Shown here piece by piece: positions 29,270 through 52,955 of a DNA stretch of 64,000 bases. The notes below the pieces were generated by a model. The model was given only the letters and a program-made list of their open reading frames with translations. It ran no database searches and had not been told where the DNA came from. Source of the DNA: Escherichia phage phiLLS; sequence record NC_047822.1. The stretch is one strand, 5' to 3'. The position numbers were made by a program, and so were the translations under genes. The number at the start of each line of letters is the position of its first letter. Position 1 is the stretch's first letter.

Positions 29270-29462
29270 TACACCCTCCTTCTCTAACTAAGACTACTAT
29301 TATAACTCATTCGAGGGCGGATGTCAATATAATTTTTCTCTTAGATATTGTATTTTGATCTGTGCTAAGAAAATTGATCAGAATGTCAAAATTTTATTGA
29401 CACCACCATAACTTTTGTATAAGATATATACATAACTTAAAAAATTTGACAAGGAAATAAAA

Positions 29463-29954: not shown

Positions 29955-30037
29955 GTATCTAATATCACACATCTCACGTTAAAAGCAAGCAAATTTTTTA
30001 TTTAAATGCAATATCATAGGCTTATTTAAAATTGTAG

Positions 30038-30066
30038 TTGCTTTTTACTGTATATATTGGTATAAT
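30038..30066 (+). promoter_or_regulatory. sigma70-type early promoter
   Basis: TTGCTT-17-TATAAT. Confidence 0.55.
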
Positions 30067-30139
30067 ATATTTGTAAGTTGATAAACAAGATCTTTTTGTT
30101 GATCCTCTGTTAGCGAAGTACACTATAGGAGTGTTATTT

Positions 30140-30892
30140 ATGGGAAAAGCACGTCAAAAAAGAGAGAACCGCAATGGTTCAAGAAAGCGTGGCAACAAAT
30201 ATGAGAATAACGTAATTCAGGCTGATTTTTCTAATGATTACGCTAACCCAGTTGCTAAATCCCTAGTAGGTAAAAACCGCGAGCAAAAATCATATATCAA
30301 TATGATCAAGAACAACACAGTGACTGTGGGTATCGGTGAGCCAGGTACTGGTAAAACCTTTATCCCGTCCGTTCTTGCAGCTCAGGAACTAGTAGACATT
30401 CACTCAGATATTGAGCAAGTGATTCTCGTACGTCCTAATGAACCTCTAGGTAAGTCTCTTGGTATGCTTCCTGGTGATCTAGCGGAAAAGCTAGAGCCTT
30501 GGTTGGAGCCAATAGCTGATGGTATGAAATGGGCCATCGGCGATCATGCATATAAGGGATATGTCGAACGTCAGAAAATTAAATTTTTGGCTATCGAACA
30601 TGCTCGTGGCAGAACTTTCAACAACTCCTATGTAATTGTCGATGAAGCTCAGAATATTTCCGTTGAGGCAATGATTTGTCTCCTAACTCGTGTAGGACAA
30701 GACTGCCGTTTAATTATCTGCGGAGATATAGCTCAGAAAGACATTAAAGGTGACTCAGGTCTAGCACTCCTTATGGAAGTCTATGGGAAATACGAAAATG
30801 CCCCATTCTCAATGATCGAATTGATTGATAACGTTCGTTCTGTTGAGTCTAAAGCATTCTATGACATTTTTAAAGACATGGGGAAGGTGTAA
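30140..30892 (+). CDS. phoH: PhoH-like ATPase
   Basis: Walker A GEPGTGKT, Walker B VIVDEAQN; AGGAG SD before ATG at 30140. Confidence 0.85.
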   Translation: MGKARQKRENRNGSRKRGNKYENNVIQADFSNDYANPVAKSLVGKNREQKSYINMIKNNTVTVGIGEPGTGKTFIPSVLAAQELVDIHSDIEQVILVRPNEPLGKSLGMLPGDLAEKLEPWLEPIADGMKWAIGDHAYKGYVERQKIKFLAIEHARGRTFNNSYVIVDEAQNISVEAMICLLTRVGQDCRLIICGDIAQKDIKGDSGLALLMEVYGKYENAPFSMIELIDNVRSVESKAFYDIFKDMGKV

Positions 30893-30893
30893 T

Positions 30894-31115
30894 ATGGGAA
30901 ACGTAGTTCATCTGAGCCGTAAAACTAAAATACATCGTACTTCACTGAGTGCTGCTAATATGATTACACGTAAGGAAGGGGAAGAAAGTCCTAAGACAAC
31001 CCTAGCGTGGAAAATTGTAACCTCAAATCCAAATAAACCATTCAATTATAACGAGCTGAGCACCTCCATAGATATTTTATTAAAAGAAGTAGCTAGAGCT
31101 AAAGTAATTGAATAA
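30894..31115 (+). CDS. hypothetical protein
   Basis: 73 aa; start MGNVVHL with AAGGTG SD. Confidence 0.45.
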   Translation: MGNVVHLSRKTKIHRTSLSAANMITRKEGEESPKTTLAWKIVTSNPNKPFNYNELSTSIDILLKEVARAKVIE

Positions 31116-31257
31116 GCTAAAAAGCTAGACTGGTAATATATAGGGCCTGGGTATGAAAATACTCGGGCCTTTTCTATCAGAAAATTTTATTTGCCTAATG
31201 ACCGATAATAAAATAGAATATTCCTTAAATCCTGATAACTATAAAAAGGAAAGCCAA

Positions 31258-33588
31258 ATGAGCCATCGCATTGAAAAAGTAATTAAACGTGACGGTACTG
31301 TAGAAGACTTTGCTCCTGAAAAACTCAATGGTTGGGCAGAGTATGGTTGCAAAACAGTTGATGTAAGTTGGTCAGCCATTACTATGGCTGCTCAAAAAAC
31401 TCTGCCTAAAGGGGTTGTAGATTCCGATACTCTGATGGATGCATTAATTAAAGCTGCTGAAAGTCTTATCAAAGATAATCCAGCATACGATGTGCCAGCA
31501 AAGGAATTACGTCTTGCGCAAATGCGTAAACGCCTTTATGATTCTTTCGAACCACCCTCTCTACGCTTCTTCCATGACCATATGGTTAGCGTAGGTGCAT
31601 GGGAAGATATGAGTGCATGGATTACCGATGAGCAATTTGAAGCTCTGAATCAGGTTATAGACCACGATCGTGACCGTCTTTTTACTAGTGGTGGGCTGAA
31701 ACAGTTCTTTGATAAGTATTCCCGTCGTAACATAGCCACTGGTGAAATTTACGAAACCCCGCAGTTTGCCTACATGGGTATGGCAATGGCGATGTTATCT
31801 CAACCTAACTGGACAATTCTAGATGCAATCGACCTCTACAACGCAATGTCACTCCACAAAATCAACGTTCCTACGCCGCCACTGGTTGGTCTGCGCTCTA
31901 GTGACCGTGGATTTGCTAGTTGTTGCCTCGTGGATTCCACTGACACGTTGGATTCAATCGACACCGCCGAGCACATCGTCTTCAAAATGGTCGCAGCCAG
32001 AGCGGGAATCGGGTATCATCTTGAAAGCAGATCAATTGCTGATCCGGTGCGAAATGGGGCATTCCCGCATTCCGGAAAACTGCCATATTATCGACACATT
32101 GACCGCTCAGTAAAGGCCAATACTCAGCAAACTCGTGGTGGTTCTGCTACAGTGTCTTATCCATACTTCGACCCTGAAATCATTCAATTGATGCAGGTTA
32201 AGCAACAACGTGCTACAGATGAGAATAAAATCGATAAGATGGATTATTCTCTGAGCTTCAACAATCTTTTACTAAAACGTTATCTTAAAAACGAAGATAT
32301 TACGCTAATGTCATACTTCTATGCTCCAGAAGTTCATGAAGCGTTTTATAGTGATGACGAGGCTAAATTTGAAGAAATCTACGTGGCAGCGGAGAAACGT
32401 GTGGCATCTCTTACAAAGATCGACCACGAAGGAAAAACAGTTCCTGCAGCTCCTAAAGTCTCTGCAAAAGAAATCCTAGATACTTGGCTACGTATCCGAA
32501 TGGAAACAGGACGTATGTATGCTCATCACATCGGGGAATCTAATCGTCACGGTAACTTCCTTGATCCAATCCGTATGACAAACCTTTGTGTTGAAATTAC
32601 TCAGCCTACGCGCCCGTTCCATCATATCACAGAACTGTATAAGACAAAAGAGCAGCTTGATCAAATGAAGCCGGAGGATATTGGTGAAGTATCTCTGTGT
32701 AACTTAGGTGGTGTTGTACTGGGGCGCATGGAATCTCTGGCTGAGTGGGAAAAAACTTGCTACATCCTCCTGAAATTCGTTGATACAATTATTGAAATTC
32801 AGGATTATCCGTTCCCAACTATGGAATATACGGCTAAGAAACGTCGTAATGTTGGTATTGGCCTAATGAACGCAGCAGGTGCAATGGCAGCAGAAGGTCT
32901 GGCTTATGAAGGTATTGAAGCCCGTAACTGGATTCACCGTGAGGCTGAAAAACTGTCCTACTTCCTGCATAAAGCCTCTGTACGCCTAGCTAAAGAACAG
33001 GGTGCATGTGAGTGGTTTGATCGTACTAAACCATCTAAAGGAATTCTGGTAATCGACACGTACAAGAAAACTGTTGATGAACTGGTATCCGTAGGTCTAG
33101 AAATGGATTGGGAGTCTCTGCGTGCAGATATTCTGAAATACGGTATGCGTAACTCTGTTCTGACTGCTCAGATGCCAGGAGAAAGTTCTTCTGTTCTGTT
33201 AGGTGTTACTAATTCTATTGAACCGCCTCGTAAGATTGTATCTATCAAGGGTAGTGCAGTGAATAAAGTAATTGCAATTGCTCCGGGTGCAACCGATTGG
33301 GAAACGTTAATGAGCTATAAACTGGCTTATGATGTAGATCGTATCGAGTGGATCAAATGGGTAGCAACTATGCAGAAATTCTTCAGTCAGTCTATCAGTA
33401 CGAATATGTACTATGACTACACCAAGTTTGAGAATGAAATCATTCCTGGCCCAGTAGTAGTTCGTGATTTCATGACTGCTGTTAAGTATGGGTGGAAGAC
33501 TTTCTACTACGCAAACTTCAACACCGCAAATGGTGGGGGTGCTGGAGAAGAAGCAGCCGGTTGTGCATCCGGTGGTTGTACTATTTAA
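31258..33588 (+). CDS. nrdA: ribonucleoside-diphosphate reductase large subunit (class I RNR alpha)
   Basis: N-terminal ATP-cone (IKRDGTVEDF), catalytic core motifs, C-terminal Cys pair; start MSHRIEK with SD. Confidence 0.9.
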   Translation: MSHRIEKVIKRDGTVEDFAPEKLNGWAEYGCKTVDVSWSAITMAAQKTLPKGVVDSDTLMDALIKAAESLIKDNPAYDVPAKELRLAQMRKRLYDSFEPPSLRFFHDHMVSVGAWEDMSAWITDEQFEALNQVIDHDRDRLFTSGGLKQFFDKYSRRNIATGEIYETPQFAYMGMAMAMLSQPNWTILDAIDLYNAMSLHKINVPTPPLVGLRSSDRGFASCCLVDSTDTLDSIDTAEHIVFKMVAARAGIGYHLESRSIADPVRNGAFPHSGKLPYYRHIDRSVKANTQQTRGGSATVSYPYFDPEIIQLMQVKQQRATDENKIDKMDYSLSFNNLLLKRYLKNEDITLMSYFYAPEVHEAFYSDDEAKFEEIYVAAEKRVASLTKIDHEGKTVPAAPKVSAKEILDTWLRIRMETGRMYAHHIGESNRHGNFLDPIRMTNLCVEITQPTRPFHHITELYKTKEQLDQMKPEDIGEVSLCNLGGVVLGRMESLAEWEKTCYILLKFVDTIIEIQDYPFPTMEYTAKKRRNVGIGLMNAAGAMAAEGLAYEGIEARNWIHREAEKLSYFLHKASVRLAKEQGACEWFDRTKPSKGILVIDTYKKTVDELVSVGLEMDWESLRADILKYGMRNSVLTAQMPGESSSVLLGVTNSIEPPRKIVSIKGSAVNKVIAIAPGATDWETLMSYKLAYDVDRIEWIKWVATMQKFFSQSISTNMYYDYTKFENEIIPGPVVVRDFMTAVKYGWKTFYYANFNTANGGGAGEEAAGCASGGCTI

Positions 33589-33620
33589 TAAAAACAAGGA
33601 GATCTTCGGGTCTCCTTTTT
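33589..33620 (+). terminator. rho-independent terminator
   Basis: ggagatcttcgggtctcc hairpin + TTTTTC. Confidence 0.65.
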
Positions 33621-33634
33621 CTTTGAAATTTTAC

Positions 33635-33663
33635 TTGCTAATCGCTATCAGATTTGCTATAAT
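33635..33663 (+). promoter_or_regulatory. sigma70-type early promoter
   Basis: TTGCTA-17-TATAAT. Confidence 0.55.
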
Positions 33664-33689
33664 ATCTTCATTAATTAGGGAGATATAAT

Positions 33690-34190
33690 TTGATTACGCA
33701 AGAAGAATTAAAACTTTTATTGGATTATGGCCCAATAAAAGGAATCTTTATATGGAAAGAACGAAATCCAGATAAAGGTGGATTTAACAAACAATTCGCA
33801 GGAAAAGTAGCAGGAACATATGATGATCTTGGCTACCTACGAATTAAGATTAACGGTGTGCAATATTTAGCGCATAGATTGGCCTTCCTTTTCGTAAAAG
33901 GATATATGCCAGAATTAGTAGACCATAAAGACCGTAATCCTAGTAATCTAGCTTGGGACAACCTTAGAGAAGCTACCAATTCTCAAAATATAATGAACTC
34001 AGCTGCTAGATCAGATAATAAACTAGGACTAAAGAACATAAGAATCAAGGGAAACTCATATCAGGTACGAATAGGCAAGAATGGCAAATCGTACACCAAG
34101 ACTATGAAATCTCTTGAAGAAGCCATAGAATGGCGGGATACTAAACTAGCTGAACTACACCAAGAATTTGCTAACAATGGAGAAGATTAA
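33690..34190 (+). CDS. HNH homing endonuclease (AP2-like domain), free-standing between nrdA and nrdB
   Basis: 166 aa; VDHKDRNPSNLAWDNLREAT HNH motif; TTG start with GGGAG SD. Confidence 0.8.
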   Translation: MITQEELKLLLDYGPIKGIFIWKERNPDKGGFNKQFAGKVAGTYDDLGYLRIKINGVQYLAHRLAFLFVKGYMPELVDHKDRNPSNLAWDNLREATNSQNIMNSAARSDNKLGLKNIRIKGNSYQVRIGKNGKSYTKTMKSLEEAIEWRDTKLAELHQEFANNGED

Positions 34191-35335
34191 TGACGACTTT
34201 ACTTAACCTAGCGTGGGATCATACTAATCCTGAACTTTTCTTAGGTGACTCCCTGGGTATTGCTGACTATGTACGAGTAGCCCACCCTGAGTTAGAACGT
34301 CTAGCACTGCTACAGCGTTCCCAATTCTGGACTGAGACAGAAATTAGTCTAGAGAGCGACAAAAAACAATGGCCTAATCTCCAACGAGAAATTCAGGAAA
34401 TTACACTCCTGAACTTAGCATGGCAGACTCAAACTGATTCCTTTATCAGTCGTGCCCCTGAAGCAGCTATTATGCCGCTTGTAAGTCGTCCAGAATTGGA
34501 AGGTATGCTCAAACAGTGGAGCTATTTTGAAGACCTGCATAGTCGTGCTTATAGCAATATTATTCGTAATGTTCTGACTGATCCAGCAGAATTTATTGAT
34601 TCTGTAACCAAAAACCAAGAAGCATTCGCACGAATCGCTGATTCTGTTGAACTATTCGATGAACTGTACCAGTTAGGTCAGTATTTCATCGCAGTACGCG
34701 ATCATCGTGGCGACAATACATATCCAGAAACTGAGTTCCCTGAAGTTAAACGTGAAACTCAGGCTAAACTATTAGACGCTTACTTTGCTATCTATGGTCT
34801 GGAAGCAATGCAGTTTTACGCATCCTTTGCATGTACCTTTGCACTAGCAGAGAACGATATTCTGCAAGGTATTGCTAAAAATCTGCAATTAATCGCTAAA
34901 GATGAGGCTCTGCATACTCAGATGTCCAAAGCAATCATCCAGATTATGTTCCAGCAGTTTGACAAAGACCTGGTGGATGAAGCCGTGGCTAAAGCACCAG
35001 CACAGCTCCTGAAAACTCTGAAAACTGAAATTGAATGGGGTCATTTCATTTTCAAAGGTCGTAGTCTGATTGGCTTGAATGCAGAACTTCTAGAAGAATA
35101 TTTGTACTTTGTGGGGCGTAATGCATTTATGCACATCGGTGTAGAATGGCCTAGTCATTTACCAGTAATCACCAAAAATCCTATTCCGTGGATCATGAAC
35201 TGGTTGGATACTACTTCTCTACAGCCTGCTCCACAAGAAATCCAGATTGGTGCAGCCTACCGTGTAGGTCAGGTAACTGAGACCTCTACTGATACTCTGA
35301 AAGATCTGGGCAATGAATTTGGAGATTTCTTATGA
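34190..35335 (+). CDS. nrdB: ribonucleoside-diphosphate reductase small subunit (class I RNR beta)
   Basis: 381 aa; di-iron ligand helices (EDLHSRAYS, EALHTQ). Confidence 0.9.
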   Translation: MTTLLNLAWDHTNPELFLGDSLGIADYVRVAHPELERLALLQRSQFWTETEISLESDKKQWPNLQREIQEITLLNLAWQTQTDSFISRAPEAAIMPLVSRPELEGMLKQWSYFEDLHSRAYSNIIRNVLTDPAEFIDSVTKNQEAFARIADSVELFDELYQLGQYFIAVRDHRGDNTYPETEFPEVKRETQAKLLDAYFAIYGLEAMQFYASFACTFALAENDILQGIAKNLQLIAKDEALHTQMSKAIIQIMFQQFDKDLVDEAVAKAPAQLLKTLKTEIEWGHFIFKGRSLIGLNAELLEEYLYFVGRNAFMHIGVEWPSHLPVITKNPIPWIMNWLDTTSLQPAPQEIQIGAAYRVGQVTETSTDTLKDLGNEFGDFL

Positions 35336-35865
35336 TTACAGCAATGTATGCAGTTGGGCCGAATGGGGAGTTCGGCCTCCGCGGTAAACTTCCATGGGGT
35401 TCCTTCAAAGAAGAACTAGATGCTTTCTATTCTCAACTGGACGTGTTGAATCCAGATAACATCATCATTGGTGCGGGTACTTATTTAGCTCTTCCATACG
35501 CCGTTAGAGAACGTATGATTGGAGCTTCTGACCTATTTATTCGTGCTGATCGTCCACTGCCAGATGATATTACACATGATATTTACACCCCAATTTCTAA
35601 GATTGGGGATGCTTTACCTACTTTTCTGAAAGATCAGCAGACAGTAGTTCTAGGTGGGGCTAACCTTCTTCTAGAAATGTATATTCATGGACATATTGAA
35701 AGTGCTTTTGTATCCACAATCTTTAGTGATCAAAAACTAGAGGCAGATGTACATCTGGATAATACGATTCTAGATTACAACTATGAATCTACTCGTTTAG
35801 TTTACGCAACTGGCGCAAACAGTGATAACAGCCTGCGATTTGTACAGGAATTGGTTACTTATTAA
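35332..35865 (+). CDS. folA: dihydrofolate reductase
   Basis: 177 aa; N-terminal MITAMYAVGPNGEFGLRGKLPW DHFR signature. Confidence 0.85.
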   Translation: MITAMYAVGPNGEFGLRGKLPWGSFKEELDAFYSQLDVLNPDNIIIGAGTYLALPYAVRERMIGASDLFIRADRPLPDDITHDIYTPISKIGDALPTFLKDQQTVVLGGANLLLEMYIHGHIESAFVSTIFSDQKLEADVHLDNTILDYNYESTRLVYATGANSDNSLRFVQELVTY

Positions 35866-36704
35866 TGCAACAATACTTAAAAATTTTGACAGATGTAATT
35901 TTACTAGGTGAACCACGTAACGATCGTACAGGGACAGGCACAGTTTCAATTTTTGATTCCTATGCTAAGTTCGATCTACGTGAAGGGTTCCCGGCTGTAA
36001 CTACTAAACGCCTGGCCTGGAAATCAGTAGTAGGAGAACTCTTATGGTTCTTGTCTGGTTCCACAAATCTCCATGATCTACGTGTATTCACCTTTGGTCG
36101 TGACGAAGGACAGTGGACCATCTGGACTCCAAATTATGAAGACCAAGCTATAAGTATGGGGTATGATAAGGGTAATCTAGGACCAGTATATGGTAAACAA
36201 TGGCGCAACTTTGGTGGACGAGATCAGATCCTAGAACTCATTGAGGGTCTCAAGAATAATCCACATGGTCGTAGACACCTAGTATCTGCATGGAACGTAG
36301 CTGAACTTGATAAAATGGCATTACCACCCTGTCACTACGGCTTCCAGTGCTATGTAAGTAACGATGGATACCTAGATCTTAAATGGACACAACGTTCTGT
36401 AGATTGTTTCCTCGGTTTACCTTTCAATATTGCTAGTTATGCTTTATTAACGCATATATTAGCAAAACTGACAGGATTAAAACCTCGTTATCTTATCTTT
36501 AGTGGCGGTGATACTCATATCTATAATGACCACATGGAACAGGTAGAAGAACAGGTAAAACGTAAACCTCGTGCTTTACCTACTCTAGTAATGCCAGAGT
36601 TTGTAGATCTTTACGATTTATTAGAAAATAATACGGCAGCTTGGTCCTTCCAGCTTGAAGGATATGATCCGCATCCGGCTCTTAAAGCTAAAATGTCCTC
36701 TTAA
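35865..36704 (+). CDS. thyA: thymidylate synthase
   Basis: 279 aa; RRHLVSAWNV...ALPPCHYGFQCYV active-site motif. Confidence 0.9.
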   Translation: MQQYLKILTDVILLGEPRNDRTGTGTVSIFDSYAKFDLREGFPAVTTKRLAWKSVVGELLWFLSGSTNLHDLRVFTFGRDEGQWTIWTPNYEDQAISMGYDKGNLGPVYGKQWRNFGGRDQILELIEGLKNNPHGRRHLVSAWNVAELDKMALPPCHYGFQCYVSNDGYLDLKWTQRSVDCFLGLPFNIASYALLTHILAKLTGLKPRYLIFSGGDTHIYNDHMEQVEEQVKRKPRALPTLVMPEFVDLYDLLENNTAAWSFQLEGYDPHPALKAKMSS

Positions 36705-36706
36705 CT

Positions 36707-36735
36707 TAAATAGCCCTTCGGGGCTATTATATTTG
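36707..36735 (+). terminator. rho-independent terminator
   Basis: tagcccttcggggcta hairpin + T-rich tail. Confidence 0.6.
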
Positions 36736-36743
36736 AAATTGTA

Positions 36744-36773
36744 TTTGCTTATTAAGTACAATTTCAAATATAA
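36744..36773 (+). promoter_or_regulatory. sigma70-type early promoter
   Basis: TTGCTT-18-TATAAT. Confidence 0.55.
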
Positions 36774-36804
36774 TATACTCAATAAGTACAAAAAGGATAA
36801 TAAA

Positions 36805-37188
36805 ATGAGTAAAGAAATTGAATTAGAACAAGCCCTTCTGAGTTACTCCAATTACTTGCAGAGTGATAAAGAAACTATTACTAAGGAACAGGTATTATTA
36901 ATACTAGACTCTATCACTTCTAAATTCAGGACTTTAGAAGACTACTACTCTGTAGGCAATGGAGATGAGAAGGTAGAGTTACGTCTAAATCTTCTAGAAG
37001 ATATGGGTTGGGACGAGGAAGATCAATTAGGATATTTAGGTATATCTACAGAAATTCTAGAAAATACAGAGCATGAAAATATACTTGAAGTAAAGAGCAA
37101 AAGTGCTATTCGATATAATACTTATGGTACAGGTATTACAGGAATAAAAGCATTACTTAGTATAGACATAGGATGGTTAGATGAGTAA
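36805..37188 (+). CDS. hypothetical protein
   Basis: 127 aa from MSKEIELE with AAGGA SD. Confidence 0.5.
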   Translation: MSKEIELEQALLSYSNYLQSDKETITKEQVLLILDSITSKFRTLEDYYSVGNGDEKVELRLNLLEDMGWDEEDQLGYLGISTEILENTEHENILEVKSKSAIRYNTYGTGITGIKALLSIDIGWLDE

Positions 37189-37729
37189 AAAGTTACCTAG
37201 CCAAGAAAGATTAAAAGAAATACTAATCTATGACCCAGATACTGGTATATTTACTAATAAGGTAAGTCGTGGTAGGGGAGGAAAAGCAGGTTCGCTAGCT
37301 GGATACCTAAGAAAAGACGGCTATATAACTATTAAGATAGATAAAATAGATTATTTAGCGCATAGGTTAGCCTTTCTATACATGACAGGATCAATACCTG
37401 ATTTAATAGACCACAAAAATAGAATTAGGTCAGATAATAGGTGGATAAATCTAAGAGAAGCTACAAGCCAGTCTAATAACAGAAATTGTACCGCATCGAG
37501 TAAATCTGGATATCTAGGTGTACACTGGAACAAACAACTACAGAAATGGCAAGTACAGGTGATTGATAATAATGGTAAAAATATTTACGGGGGTGTTTTT
37601 GACTACTTAGACCTAGAAAGTGCGGTCATAAAGGCTAATGAACTAAGAAAAACACTTCATGGTAACGAAGCAGTTATAGAAGATTTCTATACCAACTATT
37701 ACCCACCAATAGAGGAACTTAATAAGTGA
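37181..37729 (+). CDS. HNH homing endonuclease (AP2-like domain)
   Basis: 182 aa; IDHKNRIRSDNRWINLREAT HNH motif. Confidence 0.8.
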   Translation: MSKKLPSQERLKEILIYDPDTGIFTNKVSRGRGGKAGSLAGYLRKDGYITIKIDKIDYLAHRLAFLYMTGSIPDLIDHKNRIRSDNRWINLREATSQSNNRNCTASSKSGYLGVHWNKQLQKWQVQVIDNNGKNIYGGVFDYLDLESAVIKANELRKTLHGNEAVIEDFYTNYYPPIEELNK

Positions 37730-38202
37730 GCGTTTTCCACATTTACACAGATGGTGCTTGTAAGTCTAACCCAGGTCCAGGTGCTTGGGGTTTTATTGTC
37801 TATGATGATAACGACGATCGTTTAGGTTCTAAATCTGGATATAGTCCTAAAACTACAAATAATGAGATGGAACTCACGGCTATTGTAGAGGCTCTACGTT
37901 GGTCAGTTAAAAAAGATAATAGACCAATTGTTATCTATACTGACTCTGCTTATTGCAAAAATGGCATGGAAAGTTGGATGTTTTCTTGGCAAAGGAAAGG
38001 CTGGAAGAAAGCAGATGGTGAAGTTCCTCTTAATCTAGAACTTTGGCAGGAAGCATTTAAATTAACACAGCAGTATATCAACTTTCATAATACTAACCCT
38101 ACCTTTATTAAGGTTAAAGGACATTCTGGTATTAGTGGTAATGAAGCTGTAGACGCCTTATGTAACACAGTTATTACTGAAGCTGAAATGGCTGAGATGT
38201 AA
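37726..38202 (+). CDS. rnhA: ribonuclease H
   Basis: 158 aa; IYTDGACKSNPGPGAWG and YTDSAY, GHSG motifs. Confidence 0.85.
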   Translation: MSVFHIYTDGACKSNPGPGAWGFIVYDDNDDRLGSKSGYSPKTTNNEMELTAIVEALRWSVKKDNRPIVIYTDSAYCKNGMESWMFSWQRKGWKKADGEVPLNLELWQEAFKLTQQYINFHNTNPTFIKVKGHSGISGNEAVDALCNTVITEAEMAEM

Positions 38203-38222
38203 TAAATAAATTAAAAATTCTC

Positions 38223-38251
38223 TTGCTTAAATCTCTCTAATTTAGTATAAT
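38223..38251 (+). promoter_or_regulatory. sigma70-type early promoter
   Basis: TTGCTT-17-TATAAT. Confidence 0.55.
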
Positions 38252-38278
38252 ATTTGTATTGAAAGTGAGGAGGGCTTT

Positions 38279-38557
38279 ATGCGGATTTATAACTCAAATT
38301 CATTAGGATTTAAACCATTGAGAAAACGTGCACAATCACCTCGTCAAATAAGAAAGGCTAATATTGGTGAGCCAGAAACACGTCTTCCACCTCCTCCAGA
38401 ACAACGTTTAGTTTATCTGGATGAAGAGTTAGCTGAACGCGAAAGAAAAGCTCAAGAAGAGATTGAGCGTAAGAAAATGTGTACTGCTCCAGCGTATAAT
38501 AAAGGAGCGTATCAATATGTTTCCGATGCAGAACAAGCCAAGATGGTTGGTAGATAA
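38279..38557 (+). CDS. hypothetical protein
   Basis: 92 aa ORF with GAGGAGGG SD. Confidence 0.5.
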   Translation: MRIYNSNSLGFKPLRKRAQSPRQIRKANIGEPETRLPPPPEQRLVYLDEELAERERKAQEEIERKKMCTAPAYNKGAYQYVSDAEQAKMVGR

Positions 38558-38573
38558 TTTTTAAAAAATTCAT

Positions 38574-38602
38574 TTGCTAAACGCTTCAAATTCTCGTATA
38601 AT
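38574..38602 (+). promoter_or_regulatory. sigma70-type early promoter (canonical copy of repeated module)
   Basis: AAAAATTCATTTGCTA -35, 17 bp, TATAAT, then CATAAATTGA. Confidence 0.65.
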
Positions 38603-38640
38603 ATACTTCATAAATTGATAAACAAAAAGGAAAATAAATA

Positions 38641-40749: not shown

Positions 40750-41388
40750 ATGACTACTCGTATTTCTAAAACTCGCGCTCTAGCAACTATCAAATCTCTG
40801 GAAGCTAAAATCCGTAAAGCTACTGAACAGCAGCTTCTGATCGCTGTTGGTGAAGGTAAGGATAAAAACCAGGTTGTAGTTGGCGCTGCAATCGAAGTAG
40901 CTGATCTGTCTACTCGTATTAAGACTGATTTCCAGTCTCTGCTGGATATGATGTCCCAGCGTGATTGTATCAAAGCTGCTCTGATTAAAAGCAATGCGGA
41001 AACAATCGTTGAGATTGGCTCTCGTAAGATGACTGTTGCGGAAGCAATTGAAGCTAAGCGTTCTATGGAACTTAAAGCCCAATTGCTGGCTAACATGCGT
41101 AAGCAGTTCCATGCCGCTACGGTTAAGTTTAATACGCAGAAAGCACAGTTTGATGCTAAATATGAGCGTTTGCAGGATAGCATGGCTACCCGCGATAAGA
41201 AAACTTCCGAAGATGAAGTTAAAATGCAGCTCAACCTGCTGGAACTCAAGAATACTCCATTCTTGATTGATCCGCTGGAACTGGAAAAGCTGATTAAGCA
41301 GCATGACGAGGAATACCAGGACTTTGCAACAAATGTTGACTTTGTTCTGTCCGAGTCTAACGCCTCTACCTTCATTGAAGTAGAGTAA
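40750..41388 (+). CDS. hypothetical protein
   Basis: 212 aa ORF; antisense ORFs 40731-41430 rejected. Confidence 0.55.
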   Translation: MTTRISKTRALATIKSLEAKIRKATEQQLLIAVGEGKDKNQVVVGAAIEVADLSTRIKTDFQSLLDMMSQRDCIKAALIKSNAETIVEIGSRKMTVAEAIEAKRSMELKAQLLANMRKQFHAATVKFNTQKAQFDAKYERLQDSMATRDKKTSEDEVKMQLNLLELKNTPFLIDPLELEKLIKQHDEEYQDFATNVDFVLSESNASTFIEVE

Positions 41389-41771
41389 TAATTTAAAAGC
41401 TAGTAAATCGGTAGACGAAAGCCCAAGCATCTTACCTCGCAGCAGCGGTTGAAATACGAGGTTAAATAAGACCGCTGACCATACTATAAAATATAATCTA
41501 TTGGAGATTATGTTTATTACACCAGCCTTTTAAGCTGACACGTAAGAACAAAGCGTCGTTGATATTACCGACACAACTTCAAAGATCAACATTTAAGTAT
41601 GAAAGCTGAAAAGTTTAAAGAACTCAAACTTCTAAACTTCTAAAGCTAAAAGATGCAAAGTATTCGTTGATGATTCAAACCCTAGATCAAAGGTACATGG
41701 CTCATAAGATATGGCCTGTGGCGCCTCTAGGCTGTTTATCGGTTTACTAGTTTCACAATTTAAAAATGTAT

Positions 41772-41800
41772 TTGCTAATTTACTAAGTTATCTGTATAAT
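41772..41800 (+). promoter_or_regulatory. sigma70-type early promoter
   Basis: TTGCTA-17-TATAAT. Confidence 0.55.
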
Positions 41801-41830
41801 ATATTTTTAAATTGATGAAACGAGGCTATT

Positions 41831-42603: not shown

Positions 42604-42611
42604 AAATTTAC

Positions 42612-42640
42612 TTGCTTAAATACTTAAATTTCCGTATAAT
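42612..42640 (+). promoter_or_regulatory. sigma70-type early promoter
   Basis: TTGCTT-17-TATAAT. Confidence 0.55.
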
Positions 42641-42671
42641 ACTTCCATAAATTAATGAGAGGAAGCGAAAT

Positions 42672-42842
42672 ATGAAATCAGTTGTAATTATTGGTGTTAA
42701 CACTCGCGGTATTCGTACTACGAAAATTGTTAAAACTTCTAACGTTGCTGAGATCACTACGAACCCTAAAAAGTTTGATTTCGCCAAAGTCTCAGCAGTT
42801 ATGACAGAACAATCTTTTAACCAAGCGTTAGGAATGAAATAA
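42672..42842 (+). CDS. hypothetical small protein
   Basis: 56 aa ORF, TAATG overlap with next gene. Confidence 0.4.
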   Translation: MKSVVIIGVNTRGIRTTKIVKTSNVAEITTNPKKFDFAKVSAVMTEQSFNQALGMK

Positions 42843-43285
42843 TGGAAGAGAATATTTTAGATGTTTTGCGTAGAGCTTTGCAGGATTCTAAGTTTAATGG
42901 TTCTGATAAAGAAGTCGCTAAAAGCTATCAGACCATAATCGGGGATCTTCAGCGTATTGATAAAGATTTCATCACTTCTGAACAATTTGTGTCTTATCTC
43001 AAAGCTCAACTAAAAAGCATTAACCAGATGAAAGCTAAACTTCATGGTCAAGATCTTGATAGTTATAGCTTGCAGTCCGCTCAGTATGAATACATTCTAA
43101 ATAAGTGGTTGCAGGAGTATCTGCCTCCTCAGTTATCTGATACTGAGATTCGTAAATACTTTGCAGAATTAGTTAAGCTAAACCCTGGAATTACAAAAGG
43201 TATGCTGATGAAAGCGATTAAGGAAGAATTTCCTGGGCGTTACGATGGTGGTACTGCTGCTCAGATTGCTGGCGAATTTAATTAA
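42842..43285 (+). CDS. GatB/YqeY-domain-like protein
   Basis: 147 aa; resemblance to YqeY/GatB C-terminal domain by eye. Confidence 0.4.
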   Translation: MEENILDVLRRALQDSKFNGSDKEVAKSYQTIIGDLQRIDKDFITSEQFVSYLKAQLKSINQMKAKLHGQDLDSYSLQSAQYEYILNKWLQEYLPPQLSDTEIRKYFAELVKLNPGITKGMLMKAIKEEFPGRYDGGTAAQIAGEFN

Positions 43286-43293
43286 AAATTTAT

Positions 43294-43322
43294 TTGCTAA
43301 ATGCTTATAAATTCTGTATAAT
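43294..43322 (+). promoter_or_regulatory. sigma70-type early promoter preceding ORF-free region
   Basis: TTGCTA-17-TATAAT. Confidence 0.55.
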
Positions 43323-43339
43323 ATATTCATAAATTAGAG

Positions 43340-44135
43340 AACAGCGAGCCGATTACGCTGAACTTGTCTTAATGTAAGATGCGTCGAGCACTAAGATTCG
43401 TTGAATAGAGTCGGTGGGTTAGTTGTAAAACTAGTACACAGGGGGCGGCAATCCCGGTTAGTGGCTAGAACGTGTAAAATGAGGCGTCTGAAACCTCTCC
43501 CCTAAACTCTTCTCTAATTTATAAATAGTGGGGTGTGGAAATCACTTATGTAGTAACACTGCCGTCCTAGTATAATTGGTATTATCAAGCCGTAACCGGT
43601 GGAAGATGTAGGTTCGAATCCTACGGTCGGTAAGAACTGGATAACTGATGCTTTTAACGTAAAAGCTTCCGAGGTTAGTTGCGCACTGCCTAAACCACGC
43701 GGTAGTTGGTTCCAGACTAACCAACCAGTCTGCTGAATAGTTTTATTACGATTTAACTATGTCCAGGCTAAAGAAGAACTTTAGAAGGTATTCTAGGATA
43801 GTGAAGTTCTTTCTCCATATCGGAGTAGTTTTTCAAGCTATCCACAAAGTGGGAAATGCTGACATGAGAGATGTCACTAATGGTGCACAATAGCACAGGT
43901 AATTCGCGATAACTCCTGTTGAGTAGCAGCAAAAGGCGGGAAGTCATGACCCCAAGCCTAACCGAGTCCTCAATATACCGCAGGACATAACCACTAAGTC
44001 ACCCTGACTTAAACTGGAAAATAATAGACGTTACTGTATTTTGTCTTGAAATACTTAATGAGTGAGACTTATGACTCTCCCGGTATCGTCTGTATTTTTA
44101 AGAGTTTTTTACGAGAGTTCTTAAAAATACTTAAA
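43340..44135 (+). ncRNA. candidate non-coding RNA region (promoter-driven, ORF-free, tRNA-like fragments)
   Basis: ~800 bp with no ORF above ~26 codons; internal T-arm-like GTAGGTTCGAATCCTAC at 43608-43624; several hairpins. Confidence 0.3.
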
Positions 44136-44207
44136 CGGGGTGTAGTCTAAGGGAGAGGCAGGAGTCTTCTAAATTCCTTTATGCAGGTTCGAATCCTGTC
44201 ACCTCGG
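44136..44207 (+). tRNA. tRNA-Arg (anticodon TCT)
   Basis: 7-bp acceptor, D/anticodon/T arms fold; TTCGAAT T-loop; CCA encoded. Confidence 0.8.
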
Positions 44208-44244
44208 CCAATTTTATTAACTGTAACTAAAACAAAGGAAATAT

Positions 44245-45192
44245 ATGTTTGCTACTAAAAATATGAAAGAACTGACTTCTGAGCAGAAAGTAATTCGTAC
44301 TATTAAACGTTGGGGTATTGGTGCTGTAGTTGGTTTAGCAGGTTTAGTCCTAGCTTTTAATTCATATACTATTGTTTCTGATGGTACGGTTAAAACCCAA
44401 ACATTCCTGGGTAAAGTAGACCCTAATCCTGTATTACCTGGTTTTCATCTTGTAAACCCATTTGCATCTTTCGATACTTTTAGTACAAAAGACATTGCTG
44501 TAAAATTAGATAAACTTCAGGTTCCTAGTCAGGATAAGTTTAAATCCACTGTTGACCTGACTGTTATGTTGCAGTTTGATGGTTCTAAGGCACCAATTAA
44601 CCGTATTAACGCAGGTACTCAGGACCAGGCGCTAGACAAGTATGTAACTGAAAAATTACTGTCTACTATTCGTGAGTTTGGTAAATCTGTACCTAAAGCA
44701 CAAGATTTATTTGATGCTAAAATTCAGGCTCAATTGCAAACTGCAATTCAACAGGAAGTTGAAGAGTATGCACGCCCATATGGTTACACAGTTAAGCAGG
44801 TGTTTCTTCAGGATATTACTTTGCCACCAGTAATTATGGAGCAAGTACAAAATACAAAAGTTCGTGAAGAACAAGTTAATGCGGCTAAAGCTGAATTGGC
44901 TCGTGTTGAACAAGAAGCACAGCAGAAAGTCAAACAAGCTGAAGCAGATCGTGAAGCACGTAACAACCAAGCTATCGCTAATGAACGTGACGCCGATGCT
45001 AAGCTGTATGCAGCTAAGAAAGAAGCTGAAGCTAACGCCGCATTGCAACGTACCATTACTCCTGAGATGATTCGTTGGAAGCAATTGGAAGTCGAAATGA
45101 TTCGTGCTCAGAAATATCAAGGTGGTGTACCTCAGACTGTGGTAGGTACTGGCTACGATGGTCAAATGATCATGGATATGCGTAATAAATAA
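44245..45192 (+). CDS. SPFH/band-7 (HflC/prohibitin-like) membrane protein
   Basis: 315 aa; N-terminal TM helix, SPFH-like core, long Ala/Gln/Glu-rich coiled coil. Confidence 0.7.
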   Translation: MFATKNMKELTSEQKVIRTIKRWGIGAVVGLAGLVLAFNSYTIVSDGTVKTQTFLGKVDPNPVLPGFHLVNPFASFDTFSTKDIAVKLDKLQVPSQDKFKSTVDLTVMLQFDGSKAPINRINAGTQDQALDKYVTEKLLSTIREFGKSVPKAQDLFDAKIQAQLQTAIQQEVEEYARPYGYTVKQVFLQDITLPPVIMEQVQNTKVREEQVNAAKAELARVEQEAQQKVKQAEADREARNNQAIANERDADAKLYAAKKEAEANAALQRTITPEMIRWKQLEVEMIRAQKYQGGVPQTVVGTGYDGQMIMDMRNK

Positions 45193-45214: not shown

Positions 45215-45252
45215 TAAGCCCTGCGTTCCCTGGAGAGCGCAGGGCTTTTCTG
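45215..45252 (+). terminator. rho-independent terminator
   Basis: agccctgcg...cgcagggct hairpin + TTTTCT. Confidence 0.7.
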
Positions 45253-47839: not shown

Positions 47840-47914
47840 GGTTCTCAAGCTCATATGGTATGAGCACCCGGCTCATAACCGGAAGGTACGTAGGTTCGAA
47901 TCCTCGGGGAGCCA
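47840..47914 (+). tRNA. tRNA with CAT anticodon (Met/fMet/Ile2)
   Basis: acceptor and D stems pair; anticodon loop CTCATAA; CCA encoded; T-stem imperfect. Confidence 0.65.
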
Positions 47915-49156: not shown

Positions 49157-49241
49157 GGGCGTTTATTCCGTAAGTGGTAGCGGAGGGGATTGTAAATCCC
49201 TGGTCATTGCGACTCGAGTGGTTCGACTCCATTAACGCCCA
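49157..49241 (+). tRNA. tRNA-Tyr (anticodon GTA), class II
   Basis: perfect acceptor gggcgtt/aacgccc; anticodon loop TTGTAAA; CCA encoded. Confidence 0.8.
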
Positions 49242-49251
49242 CCAATTTAAT

Positions 49252-52871: not shown

Positions 52872-52947
52872 GGGGAATGGGTCTGCATGGAGTGGACACC
52901 TCGCTTGCACCGAGGACATCAGAACGGTTCGATTCCGTTATTCTCCA
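52872..52947 (+). tRNA. tRNA-Ala (anticodon TGC)
   Basis: perfect anticodon stem CCTCG/CGAGG, loop CTTGCAC, T-arm AACGG/CCGTT; 3' end CAA rather than CCA. Confidence 0.65.
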
Positions 52948-52955
52948 CAAAATAC

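What the first reader, a model, noticed from the sequence alone, without database searches (positions are those of the whole stretch)
43340..44135. About 800 bp promoter-driven ORF-free region: candidate stable RNA(s)
A canonical early promoter at 43294-43322 fires into a stretch with no ORF longer than about 26 codons, although the surrounding genome is almost gap-free. The stretch contains a T-arm-like GTAGG-TTCGAATC-CTAC element, but I could not fold a tRNA cloverleaf around it. It ends at tRNA-Arg. This fits structured non-coding RNA, degenerate tRNA genes or a processed leader. T5-type phages have been reported to encode small stable RNAs besides tRNAs (from memory, not verified here).
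Basis: partly seen in the sequence, partly recalled or inferred. Interest (0 to 1): 0.55.

Follow-up and report, generated by a model that had tools for sequence, protein, structure and literature searches.

The report
Large structured RNA of T5-like phages
The gene-free 800 bases encode a large, intricately folded non-coding RNA, listed as 'RNAX, function unknown' in phage T5, that carries a tRNA look-alike and resembles the unexplained giant RNAs found beside tRNA genes in other phages.

Summary
The window is a T5-like phage (Tequintavirus). The flagged stretch matches the feature the T5 GenBank record calls 'rnaX / RNAX, stable RNA with unknown functions'. It lies between early promoter 'P 16-17' and tRNA-Arg.

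The promoter, the T-arm motif and tRNA-Arg are all present. The claim of no ORF above 26 codons is wrong: ORFs of 34-60 codons exist. None survives in relatives, so the region is non-coding.

Comparison across Demerecviridae shows one large modular RNA of about 600-1270 nt. Its helices are kept by compensatory changes:
- core with the tRNA-like element: 15 of 36 pairs;
- 3' multi-helix domain: 22 of 36 pairs;
- 3' three-way junction plus terminal hairpin: 24 of 41 pairs.
Register-shifted controls gave at most 5.

The 'T-arm' belongs to a tRNA-like domain (Rfam tRNA 35.5 bits). It has a 6-nt anticodon loop and no CCA, and sits inside a covarying leader-trailer helix.

One hairpin loop switches between different palindromes, and another is an invariant palindrome. 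In OLE and GOLLD this pattern marks intermolecular kissing loops.

No Rfam family other than tRNA matches. I read it as a new class of large ornate phage RNA, analogous to GOLLD/ROOL. Its function is unknown, and self-assembly is a hypothesis.

The parts
43294..43329 (+). T5-type early sigma-70 promoter (-35 TTGCTA, -10 TATAAT at 43317-43322). The likely start is near A43329.
   Evidence: Consensus scan. It is identical over 43 nt to T5 'promoter P 16-17'. The start site is inferred by analogy with T5 PN25, recalled from memory and not tested.
43337..43523 (+). Domain I, optional and absent in T5, DT57C and mar003J3. It holds hairpin H1 (43342-43346 / 43356-43360), a variable arm H2 whose basal helix is 43361-43363 / 43400-43402, the motif GAAUAGAGUCGGUG (43403-43416), a GNRA hairpin (43420-43424 / 43429-43433), a helix at 43435-43439 / 43472-43476, hairpin H4 (43481-43484 / 43494-43497) and the motif UAAACUCUUCUCU (43503-43515).
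   Evidence: Alignment of 13 lineages. H1 is CAGCG/CGCUG, changed to CAGCA/UGCUG in My1. The H2 base occurs in five sequence versions that all pair. H4 is GAGG/CCUC versus GCGG/CCGC versus CGGGA/UCCCG. The GNRA hairpin and the 43435-43439 / 43472-43476 helix are my own reading of the window sequence and were not tested comparatively.
43528..43698 (+). Domain II, closed by helix P0: GUGG 43528-43531 pairs with CCAC 43695-43698.
   Evidence: Compensatory versions are AUGG/CCAU (KKP3711, PSTCR5) and ACGG/CCGU (My1).
43544..43646 (+). Leader-trailer helices P1 (43544-43549 / 43641-43646) and P2 (43551-43554 / 43636-43639), which enclose the tRNA-like domain.
   Evidence: 5 of 10 pairs change on both sides and 90% of cells are paired. 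The helix is kept in GSW6 and Kp150049, where the tRNA-like insert is replaced.
43561..43632 (+). tRNA-like domain: acceptor 43561-43567 / 43625-43631, D arm 43570-43573 / 43582-43585, anticodon-arm stand-in 43588-43591 / 43598-43601 with a 6-nt loop, and T arm 43608-43612 / 43620-43624. No CCA is encoded.
   Evidence: Rfam RF00005 scores 35.5 bits against a gathering score of 29. ARAGORN is negative. Compensatory changes occur in the acceptor, anticodon-arm and T stems. The window's genuine tRNA genes end in CCA (20 of the 21 ARAGORN calls at the called end) and this element does not.
43650..43666 (+). Hairpin GCUUUU...AAAAGC.
   Evidence: Versions GCUUAU/AUAAGC, GCUUC/GAAGC and GGUUC/GAACC; 2 of 6 pairs are compensatory.
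43672..43691 (+). Hairpin M1, whose loop contains UGCGCA (43680-43685).
   Evidence: Stem GGCAG/CUGCC changes to GACAG/CUGUC in KKP3711. The loop is UACGUA in GSW6. Support is weak.
43700..43845 (+). Domain III, variable hairpins: M2 (43705-43711 / 43719-43725), M3 (43737-43742 / 43755-43760), and extended M4 (43772-43781 / 43804-43814) with an inner hairpin (43782-43786 / 43791-43795).
   Evidence: M2 is GUUGGUU/AACCAAC versus GUUGAUU/AAUCAAC. The M4 inner stem is UAGAA/UUCUA versus UAGGC/GCCUA. M3 occurs in three versions. All were read from the alignments; no formal count was made.
43846..43994 (+). Domain IV, a multi-helix junction. The closing helix pairs GUGG 43849-43852 with CCAC 43991-43994. 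Inside are Ha (43860-43865 / 43871-43876), Hc (43895-43899 / 43915-43919), Hd (43934-43941 / 43950-43959) and He (43966-43970 / 43982-43986).
   Evidence: MAFFT alignment: 96% of cells paired and 8 of 37 pairs compensatory, slid controls at most 2. Model-fitted alignment of 15 sequences: 22 of 36 compensatory, slid controls at most 5. The closing helix is invariant.
43904..43909 (+). Self-complementary UCGCGA in the Hc loop, a candidate symmetric kissing-loop site.
   Evidence: Other lineages carry CGCGCG, CUCGAG, CCGCGG/UCCGCGGA or GUGCGCAC at the equivalent loop; S124 has only CGCG.
43942..43949 (+). Hd loop AGUCAUGA, containing the palindrome UCAUGA. The sequence GGAGUCAUGACC is nearly invariant.
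   Evidence: Invariant across 13 lineages while the stem covaries.
43997..44131 (+). Domain V: hairpin AGUCA-CCC-UGACU (43997-44009), motifs AACUGGAAAAUA and CUUAAU, and a three-way junction. The junction is P-x (44026-44030 + 44032-44035 / 44082-44085 + 44087-44091) enclosing P-w (44036-44041 / 44049-44054) and P-y (44060-44063 / 44074-44077). An 18-bp AU-rich terminal hairpin follows (44092-44109 / 44113-44130).
   Evidence: Covariance model R1 finds it in all 22 loci searched, including My1. 95.7% of cells are paired and 24 of 41 pairs are compensatory, slid controls at most 5. Independent MFE folds of four sequence types give the same topology.
44136..44210 (+). tRNA-Arg(UCU), co-transcribed. 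Its RNase P site would create the RNAX 3' end.
   Evidence: ARAGORN and Rfam at 49.3 bits. The T5 record ends RNAX at the base before tRNA-Arg. The RNase P step is inferred.

Best explanation
The interval 43329/43337-44135 is the template for one large, modular, highly structured non-coding RNA. It is the homologue of T5 'RNAX'.

Transcription and ends (inferred): it is transcribed early by host RNA polymerase from a T5-type promoter, as the first part of a transcript that continues into tRNA-Arg and the SPFH-domain gene. RNase P cleavage at the 5' end of tRNA-Arg would release its 3' end. That end sits 4-5 nt after an 18-bp terminal hairpin, which would protect against 3' exonucleases.

Fold (shown by covariation): five domains.
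- an optional 5' domain;
- a domain closed by GUGG/CCAC, carrying an optional tRNA-like arm inside a leader-trailer helix;
- a variable hairpin region;
- a conserved multi-helix junction;
- a conserved three-way junction.

tRNA-like arm (shown): it keeps the acceptor/T/D 'top half' of a tRNA but has no usable anticodon loop and no CCA. It is therefore not a decoding tRNA.

Self-association (inferred, about 0.4): two conserved hairpin loops in the 3' core are self-complementary, and one keeps its palindromy while its sequence changes. I infer that the RNA self-associates through symmetric kissing loops, as shown for OLE, GOLLD and ROOL.

Biological role (speculative, about 0.2): unknown. From its place in the dispensable tRNA / anti-defence island, I favour a role in tRNA-related host takeover or counter-defence, for example as a scaffold or decoy that displays or encloses tRNA-like RNA.
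For: Identity with annotated RNAX:
- 92.9% identity to T5 over 78% of the query, with the same flanks: promoter P 16-17 upstream and tRNA-Arg downstream.

Non-coding:
- All seven ORFs of 23-60 codons are interrupted in relatives.
- Substitutions are spread evenly over codon positions.

Structure:
- 15 of 36, 24 of 41 and 22 of 36 pairs have changes on both sides.
- 88-96% of cells are paired. In all four counts no shuffle (0/500) reached the observed values for percentage paired, pairs and cells changed on both sides, or covariation score; 'further pair types' was reached by 39, 2, 11 and 0 of 500 shuffles. Register-shifted controls gave at most 5 pairs.
- The unfitted MAFFT alignment of domain IV gives 8 of 37, against at most 2 in controls.
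- Helix P0 and the 5' helices have several compensatory versions.

Strand:
- Many conserved G-U pairs (for example UG:18, GU:15 and GU:20; GU:18 and UG:20) would be A-C mismatches on the minus strand.

Breadth:
- Present in Tequintavirus, Epseptimavirus, Sugarlandvirus and Myunavirus, and partly in Priunavirus.
- Absent from 185,579 bacterial and archaeal species genomes, by motif scan.

tRNA-like arm:
-.

Palindromic loops:
-. The same criterion was used for OLE and GOLLD kissing loops (PMC12286853).

Dispensability and island context:
- The BF23 deletion (PMC10644984).
- The anti-defence island (bioRxiv 10.1101/2023.03.15.532788).
Against: - No expression data could be examined. 'Stable RNA' rests only on the wording of the T5 GenBank annotation, whose experimental basis I could not find.
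- Whole-region folding energy is not exceptional: z = -1.0 on the plus strand and -1.6 on the minus strand.
- The sequences are related and few independent lineages exist, about 6-8. Cell counts therefore overstate the number of independent events. Two of the four counts use model-fitted alignments, which lean towards the model.
- Shuffled loops of the same composition contain a palindrome of 6 nt or more 22% of the time. S124 has only CGCG.
- The modules are mosaic: domain I and the tRNA-like arm are missing in some phages. The RNA could therefore act as separate pieces after processing at the tRNA-like element.
- Nothing here bears on function.
Confidence: 0.8

Rival explanations
1. The region is a string of independent small RNAs. 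A tRNA-like pseudogene or processing signal is cut out by RNase P and RNase Z/E, and the flanking leader fragments, some stable, have no joint architecture.
For: T5 encodes several small stable and tRNA-like RNAs in the same island. The modules are mosaic and individually lost: domain I in T5, the tRNA-like arm in GSW6. The tRNA-like top half is a plausible RNase P substrate. Whole-region MFE is unremarkable.
Against: Helices that join sequence on both sides of the tRNA-like element covary (P1/P2, P0). The pieces therefore pair with each other even if nicked. The 3' 290 nt form closed multi-helix junctions with invariant junction motifs. The tRNA-like element shows compensatory changes rather than decay.
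Confidence: 0.12
2. The region encodes one or more small proteins. GenBank records annotate ORFs of 34, 59 and 60 codons here, and conservation reflects coding.
For: ORFs of 34-60 codons exist on both strands. They are annotated as hypothetical proteins in Baret, PMBT29 and others.
Against: Every ORF acquires stops or frameshifts in relatives as close as T5, mar003J3 or S124. Substitutions are not biased to third codon positions. T5 and DT57C curators annotated no CDS here.
Confidence: 0.02
3. It is a long cis-acting 5' leader that controls processing, stability or translation of the downstream tRNA-Arg / SPFH-domain operon, rather than a trans-acting RNA.
For: There is a single promoter and no predicted terminator before tRNA-Arg and the Band_7 gene. 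The terminal hairpin abuts tRNA-Arg in the window.
Against: In S124, GSW6, ende, KKP3711 and My1 an unrelated ORF lies between the terminal hairpin and tRNA-Arg. In Sugarlandvirus several ORFs intervene. The RNA, including its terminal hairpin, is nevertheless kept. tRNA processing would sever it from the mRNA. 600-1270 nt of conserved junctions is far beyond known leaders.
Confidence: 0.05
4. The conservation reflects a DNA-level element (replication, nick or recombination site, homing-endonuclease targets) or a minus-strand transcript.
For: The T5 tRNA island is rich in HNH endonucleases and recombination junctions: a BF23 junction lies inside the T-loop and mar003J3 has an HNH insertion. 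Minus-strand MFE is slightly better, z = -1.6. Palindromes could be protein-binding sites.
Against: Conserved G-U pairs are compatible only with the plus-strand RNA. The palindromes differ in sequence between lineages, which argues against one DNA-binding protein. The promoter points into the plus strand.
Confidence: 0.02

Closest known systems
T5 'rnaX / RNAX' (misc_RNA T5s08 in NC_005859/AY543070; also annotated in DT57C)
   Same: It is the same locus: promoter P 16-17, then RNAX, then tRNA-Arg, downstream of the YqeY-like gene. Identity is 92.9% over window 43505-44135.
   Different: The window's version is 799 nt against 719 nt in T5. It has an extra 170-nt 5' domain that T5 lacks, and it lacks T5's 87-nt insertion and motif duplication near 44010. 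The annotation says only 'stable RNA with unknown functions'. No structure, tRNA-like domain or family-wide conservation is recorded, and I found no paper describing it.
GOLLD RNA (Rfam family; giant ornate phage/prophage RNA)
   Same: Both are large phage RNAs next to a tRNA island. Both have a conserved 3' region and a variable 5' region. tRNAs sometimes lie inside the GOLLD linker, and a tRNA-like domain is embedded here. GOLLD forms homo-oligomers through kissing loops, one of which (L21a) switches between palindromes, as the Hc loop does here (PMC12286853).
   Different: There is no sequence or structure match to the Rfam model at E up to 10 (relatives searched at E up to 0.1). The hosts are enterobacterial virulent phages. 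Oligomerisation here is only inferred.
ROOL RNA (Rfam family)
   Same: It is a phage-encoded large structured RNA of about 600 nt, often near tRNA islands. It is abundant but non-essential and of unknown function, and it self-assembles through conserved kissing loops (PMC12286853). RNAX is likewise dispensable (BF23).
   Different: No Rfam match. The helices and motifs are different.
tRNA and tRNA-like stable RNAs (RF00005; T5 RNA1, RNA2 and RNA3 'tRNA-like stable RNA'; mascRNA-type processing modules)
   Same: The acceptor, D and T arms with GG and UUCGAAU loops score above the tRNA gathering threshold. T5 annotates other tRNA-like stable RNAs in the same island. Leader-trailer pairing around a tRNA-like module is also described for MALAT1/mascRNA; I saw only the title and abstract of PMC8457004, listed.
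   Different: It has a 6-nt loop on a 3-4 bp stem in place of the anticodon arm, and other lineages have a triloop or an inserted hairpin there. No CCA is encoded. It sits inside a larger RNA and is optional.

Membership tests
T5 RNAX (annotated stable RNA) | Sequence homology to the T5 rnaX interval | tested here: met
   blastn gives 92.9% identity over query positions 176-811, with 'rnaX: RNAX' under the match. Locus map.
T5 RNAX (annotated stable RNA) | Same genomic position: after the YqeY-like gene and promoter P 16-17, immediately before tRNA-Arg(UCU) | tested here: met
T5 RNAX (annotated stable RNA) | Accumulates as a stable RNA in infected cells | not testable with these tools
   Only the annotation text says so. 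No paper was found.
tRNA (RF00005) | Cloverleaf scoring above the Rfam gathering threshold | tested here: met
   35.5 bits against 29 at 43561-43632. The anticodon arm is left unaligned.
tRNA (RF00005) | 5-bp anticodon stem with a 7-nt loop (U33, anticodon) | tested here: not met
   The stem is 3-4 bp and the loop 6 nt (GUAACC). The arm is 1 nt shorter than in a tRNA. Other lineages have a triloop or an inserted hairpin. ARAGORN makes no call.
tRNA (RF00005) | Encoded 3' CCA, as in this phage's genuine tRNA genes | tested here: not met
   20 of the 21 ARAGORN tRNA calls end in CCA at the called end (tRNA-Ala reads ...CTCCAC). The tRNA-like ends GGTCGGTA|AGAAC.
GOLLD / ROOL / OLE / raiA / HEARO (large bacterial and phage RNAs in Rfam) | Match to the family covariance model | tested here: not met
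   cmscan of 42800-44700 at E up to 10, the whole window at gathering score, and four relatives' loci at E up to 0.1 gave only tRNA hits and chance-level matches.
Large ornate phage RNAs as a kind (works-like, not a homology family) | More than 500 nt, many covariation-supported helices and junctions, phage-encoded near a tRNA island | tested here: met
   Length is 606-1274 nt. Covariation is shown. The tRNA island starts at 44136.
Large ornate phage RNAs as a kind (works-like, not a homology family) | Homo-oligomerisation through symmetric kissing loops | tested here: inconclusive
   The palindromic loop switches between 5-6 palindromes, and a second loop is an invariant palindrome. The null rate of palindromes in such loops is 22%.
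tmRNA | tRNA-like domain formed by the 5' and 3' ends, plus a tag reading frame | tested here: not met
   ARAGORN reports no tmRNA and Rfam has no hit. The tRNA-like domain is internal.

The most novel reading that the evidence does not exclude
RNAX is a previously unrecognised class of self-assembling 'ornate' phage RNA. It would be a functional analogue of GOLLD/ROOL in the classical model phage T5 and its relatives, which infect E. coli and Salmonella. Its conserved 3' core would oligomerise through two or three symmetric kissing loops. Its variable region would display or enclose a tRNA-like domain, serving tRNA-centred host takeover or counter-defence, for example as a decoy or shelter against tRNA-targeting nucleases.
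Probability: 0.3. Interest if true: 0.85.

Novelty: new variant of a known kind. Interest (0 to 1): 0.68.

Why it matters
GOLLD and ROOL show that phages carry giant self-assembling RNAs beside their tRNA genes. Nobody knows what these RNAs do, partly because their hosts and phages are hard to manipulate.

If RNAX is an analogous RNA, the same question becomes testable in T5 and E. coli, where genetics, defence-system panels, RNase mutants and deletion collections already exist.

There are practical consequences too:
- The region is mis-annotated in hundreds of phage genomes as hypothetical proteins, 'tRNA-OTHER', 'tRNA-Ser', 'tRNA-Leu', 'tRNA-Pro' or 'tRNA-Sec'.
- It is not represented in Rfam.

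Tried and rejected
- Whole-region MFE z-scores on both strands were uninformative.
- Literature searches for RNAX or T5 stable RNAs, and for ornate/nanocage terms combined with T5, found nothing describing this RNA. One hit for 'RNAX' in a coliphage paper was not in its main text.
- IMG/VR and metagenome scans mostly returned the same isolate lineages. The genome-contig scan returned nothing.
- An automatic search for covarying column pairs on the MAFFT alignment of the full region gave a noisy mix of true local helices and implausible long-range pairs. I used it only as a pointer.
- Model R2 did not recover the Sugarlandvirus, ende or My1 versions of domain IV with default filters, because of large insertions. 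Their homology there rests on motif order.

Ideas I dropped:
- A closing helix between the 5' end (GAGAA) and UUCUC at 43511-43515. GAGAG belongs to the conserved downstream part of T5 promoters, and the pairing does not covary.
- A hairpin at 43532-43545, whose register is inconsistent between lineages.
- A pseudoknot CAGAC/GUCUG around 43713-43733, which is not conserved.
- Helix Hb' (43884-43887 / 43925-43928), which has three invariant pairs plus one mostly unpaired.
- The My1 equivalent of the palindromic loop, which is ambiguous (AACGUU or GUGCAC) and was not counted.
Full report
**What the window is**

The 1.1 kb around the finding is 99.5% identical to Salmonella phages LVR16A and NBSal005. 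It matches 444 T5-like phage records at megablast sensitivity and 525 with the more sensitive blastn search. ARAGORN finds 21 tRNA genes downstream, the first being tRNA-Arg(UCU) at 44136-44210. The window is therefore the early tRNA island of a Tequintavirus.

**Checking the observation**

- The promoter at 43294-43322 is real as a consensus match (TTGCTA-17-TATAAT, 10/12). It is identical over 43 nt to the promoter the T5 record names 'P 16-17'.
- No plus-strand terminator is predicted before tRNA-Arg. The first is at 45228, after the Band_7/SPFH gene.
- The 'T-arm-like' motif is present at 43608-43624.
- The statement that no ORF exceeds about 26 codons is wrong. ORFs of 34, 45 and 44 codons lie on the plus strand and of 60 and 59 codons on the minus strand. 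Several GenBank records annotate some of them.
- I projected all seven ORFs of 23-60 codons onto 12 relatives. Every one is broken by stop codons or frameshifts, some already in T5 or mar003J3. Substitutions are spread evenly over the three codon positions.

**It is already annotated, but barely**

The curated T5 record (NC_005859) annotates the homologous interval, from promoter P 16-17 to the base before tRNA-Arg, as misc_RNA 'rnaX, RNAX, stable RNA with unknown functions' (719 nt). DT57C copies this annotation (636 nt). The same record lists seven further 'stable' or 'tRNA-like' RNAs in the island.

I found no paper describing RNAX in the searchable library. A cited Russian paper on T5 tRNA-region deletions (Glukhov et al. 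2018; seen) was not available. The deletions quoted from it in the PARIS paper (T5 coordinates 30661-38625 and 29191-32442) do not reach RNAX at 40848-41566.

**The tRNA-like element**

Rfam's tRNA model scores 43561-43632 at 35.5 bits against a gathering score of 29, but leaves the anticodon arm unaligned. ARAGORN rejects it. Other annotators call the homologue 'tRNA-OTHER', 'tRNA-Ser(ACT)', 'tRNA-Pro', 'tRNA-Leu' or 'tRNA-Sec'.

Alignment of 22 distinct sequences shows several things:
- Compensatory changes occur in the acceptor stem (C-G to U-A at 6:67), the T stem (U-A to C-G, A-U to G-C) and the short stem that replaces the anticodon stem (C-G to G-C).
- That stem carries a 6-nt loop, so the arm is 1 nt shorter than in a tRNA.
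- Other lineages have a 6-bp stem with a triloop (My1), a different 6-nt loop (metagenome contig L089), or a proper 5-bp stem capped by an inserted covarying hairpin (the 86-87 nt 'long allele' in Kpn02 and L083).
- The window's genuine tRNA genes end in CCA (20 of the 21 ARAGORN calls at the called end; tRNA-Ala reads ...CTCCAC), but this element does not.

It is therefore a selected tRNA-like 'top half' without decoding capacity, not a decaying pseudogene. It is also optional. GSW6, Kp150049, L028, L029 and PSTCR5 carry an unrelated insert at the same point.

**It sits inside a larger fold**

- The sequences flanking the tRNA-like domain pair with each other: P1 is 43544-43549 with 43641-43646, and P2 is 43551-43554 with 43636-43639. 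Five of these ten pairs change on both sides. The helix is kept where the tRNA-like insert is replaced.
- For the whole block 43542-43670 (129 nt), 88% of cells pair. 15 of 36 pairs have changes on both sides, against 6.3 ± 1.4 in shuffles (0/500) and at most 4 in register-shifted controls.
- A further 4-bp helix, P0 (GUGG 43528-43531 with CCAC 43695-43698), closes this domain. It becomes AUGG/CCAU in KKP3711 and PSTCR5, and ACGG/CCGU in My1.

**The 3' half is the conserved core**

Domain V (43997-44131):
- Covariance model R1, built from window-type sequences with my structure, found this domain in all 22 loci searched, including Pectobacterium phage My1 at 40 bits.
- On the resulting alignment 95.7% of cells pair. 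24 of 41 pairs change on both sides, against at most 5 in slid controls.
- The three-way-junction helix P-x exists in at least three unrelated sequence versions: AGACGUUAC/GUAUCGUCU, CUGACGG/CCGUCGG and CAGUAG/CUACUG.
- Unconstrained MFE folds of four sequence types give the same topology.

Domain IV (43846-43994), a junction closed by the invariant pairing GUGG/CCAC:
- A plain MFFT-type (MAFFT) alignment gives 96% paired and 8 of 37 compensatory pairs, against at most 2 in slid controls.
- The model-fitted alignment, with two more divergent lineages, gives 22 of 36, against at most 5.

Between the helices lie invariant motifs: GUGGGAAA, GGAGUCAUGACC, AACCAC, AGUCACCYUGACU, AACUGGAARAUA and CUUAAU.

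Domain I (43337-43523) and the variable middle region also contain hairpins with compensatory versions. Domain I is cleanly absent from T5, DT57C and mar003J3.

Many conserved G-U pairs fix the structure to the plus-strand RNA.

**Breadth**

- The RNA spans 606 nt (mar003J3) to about 1270 nt (Klebsiella Sugarlandvirus phages), measured from promoter to terminal hairpin.
- It occurs in Tequintavirus, Epseptimavirus, Sugarlandvirus and Myunavirus, and in part in Priunavirus.
- A diagnostic 23-nt motif is absent from 185,579 bacterial and archaeal species genomes.
- In S124, GSW6, ende, KKP3711 and My1 an ORF lies between the terminal hairpin and tRNA-Arg. In Sugarlandvirus several ORFs do. The hairpin therefore belongs to the RNA, not to the tRNA.
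- BF23 has a natural deletion of about 4 kb. It starts inside the T-loop of the tRNA-like element and removes the rest of RNAX and tRNA-Arg. The RNA is therefore dispensable in the laboratory (PMC10644984).
- The region lies within the tRNA-rich early-gene region that the SP15/T5 work treats as an 'anti-defence island' (bioRxiv 10.1101/2023.03.15.532788); BF23's deletion there was read as loss of an antidefence locus.

**Palindromic loops**

- The loop of hairpin Hc contains UCGCGA in the window. The equivalent loop holds CGCGCG in T5, CUCGAG in L029, CCGCGG (UCCGCGGA) in KKP3711 and Sugarlandvirus, and GUGCGCAC in ende. S124 has only CGCG.
- The loop of Hd, AGUCAUGA, is invariant and contains the palindrome UCAUGA, while its stem covaries.
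- A 6-nt palindrome cannot pair within one loop. Keeping palindromy while the sequence changes is the criterion used to support intermolecular kissing loops in OLE (L9.3) and GOLLD (L21a) (PMC12286853).
- The caveat is that shuffled loops of this composition contain a palindrome of 6 nt or more 22% of the time, and only about six independent lineages exist. I rate self-association at about 0.4.

**Comparison with known families**

No Rfam family other than tRNA matches the window or the relatives, at E up to 10 for the window region and up to 0.1 for the relatives. It is therefore not GOLLD, ROOL, OLE, raiA, HEARO or tmRNA.

It does share the defining traits of the kind with GOLLD and ROOL:
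- a large, ornate, covariation-rich RNA;
- phage-encoded beside a tRNA island;
- a conserved 3' region with a variable 5' region;
- a tRNA or tRNA-like element inside a variable region;
- non-essential;
- probable symmetric kissing loops.

**Mechanism: what is shown and what is inferred**

Shown:
- a non-coding region;
- a plus-strand structure under selection;
- modular domains;
- a tRNA-like arm without anticodon or CCA;
- conservation across Demerecviridae;
- dispensability in BF23.

Inferred:
- early transcription from the T5-type promoter;
- co-transcription with tRNA-Arg and the SPFH gene;
- release of the 3' end by RNase P at 44135/44136, with the 18-bp hairpin as an exonuclease block;
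- possible nicking at the tRNA-like arm, with the pieces held together by P0, P1 and P2.

Hypothesised:
- homo-oligomerisation;
- a tRNA-centred host-takeover or counter-defence role.

**Verdict**

The interpretation as structured stable RNA is supported, and in T5 it is already annotated as RNAX. What appears new is that RNAX is a family-wide, large, ornate RNA with an embedded tRNA-like domain and palindrome-switching loops. That makes it a GOLLD/ROOL-like class in a tractable model phage.

Noticed in passing
window 47840-47914 (+): Rfam tRNA hit at 40.3 bits, directly after tRNA-Ser(GCU), that ARAGORN did not call. By position it corresponds to tRNA-Ile(CAU) of DT57C/T5. Conversely, ARAGORN's tRNA-Tyr (49157-49244) and tRNA-Ala (52872-52948) are missing from the Rfam gathering list.
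   Followed up: no
L010 (phage BF23) about 1768-1800; window equivalent 43615-43622: In BF23 the tRNA-like element is cut inside its T-loop and fused to the 3' end of another tRNA (…GGTTCGAATCC|TCGGGGAGCCACCA). The HNH endonuclease gene hegA follows. This looks like a deletion by recombination between T-loops or by endonuclease-driven exchange.
   Followed up: partly
L004 (T5) 3010-3075 and L078 7386-7451; window equivalent about 44010-44019: T5 and one metagenomic relative carry an 87-nt insertion. It is a long hairpin flanked by a second copy of the motif AGUCACCUUGAC-UAAACUGGAA, so a conserved RNAX motif has been tandemly duplicated.
   Followed up: partly
L006, L058, L059, L062, L099 (S124, GSW6, KKP3711, ende, My1), between the RNAX terminal hairpin and tRNA-Arg: An ORF of about 160-180 codons, annotated as hypothetical, is inserted here in several lineages and absent from the window. 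mar003J3 instead has an HNH endonuclease gene where the promoter and 5' domain would be.
   Followed up: no
window 43596: The window has C where every other sequence examined has T (GTAACCGG versus GTAACTGG) in the loop of the tRNA-like 'anticodon' arm. This would add a G-C pair and shrink the loop to 4 nt.
   Followed up: no
window about 42604-42654 and about 41764-41813, versus 43286-43336: Two upstream segments are 77-83% identical to the promoter module (seen as secondary BLAST hits in relatives). They are further copies of the conserved T5 early-promoter cassette, including its transcribed first bases.
   Followed up: no
window 42842-43285 (+): The gene immediately upstream of RNAX in most lineages is annotated 'tRNA amidotransferase' or 'recombination related exonuclease'. 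It gives only a weak YqeY match (25.4 bits, below Pfam's cutoff of 27). A tRNA-binding-type domain next to a tRNA-like RNA could be a partner, but this is untested.
   Followed up: partly
window 43528-43535 and 43849-43856; 43692-43698 and 43988-43994: Two domains are each opened by A-GUGGG-R and closed by AACCAC (GUGG/CCAC helices). This hints at an internal duplication in the RNA's history.
   Followed up: no
window 43680-43685: A third hairpin loop contains the palindrome UGCGCA. It is UACGUA in GSW6, but UACGCA (not palindromic) in mar003J3. It may be another kissing site or chance.
   Followed up: partly
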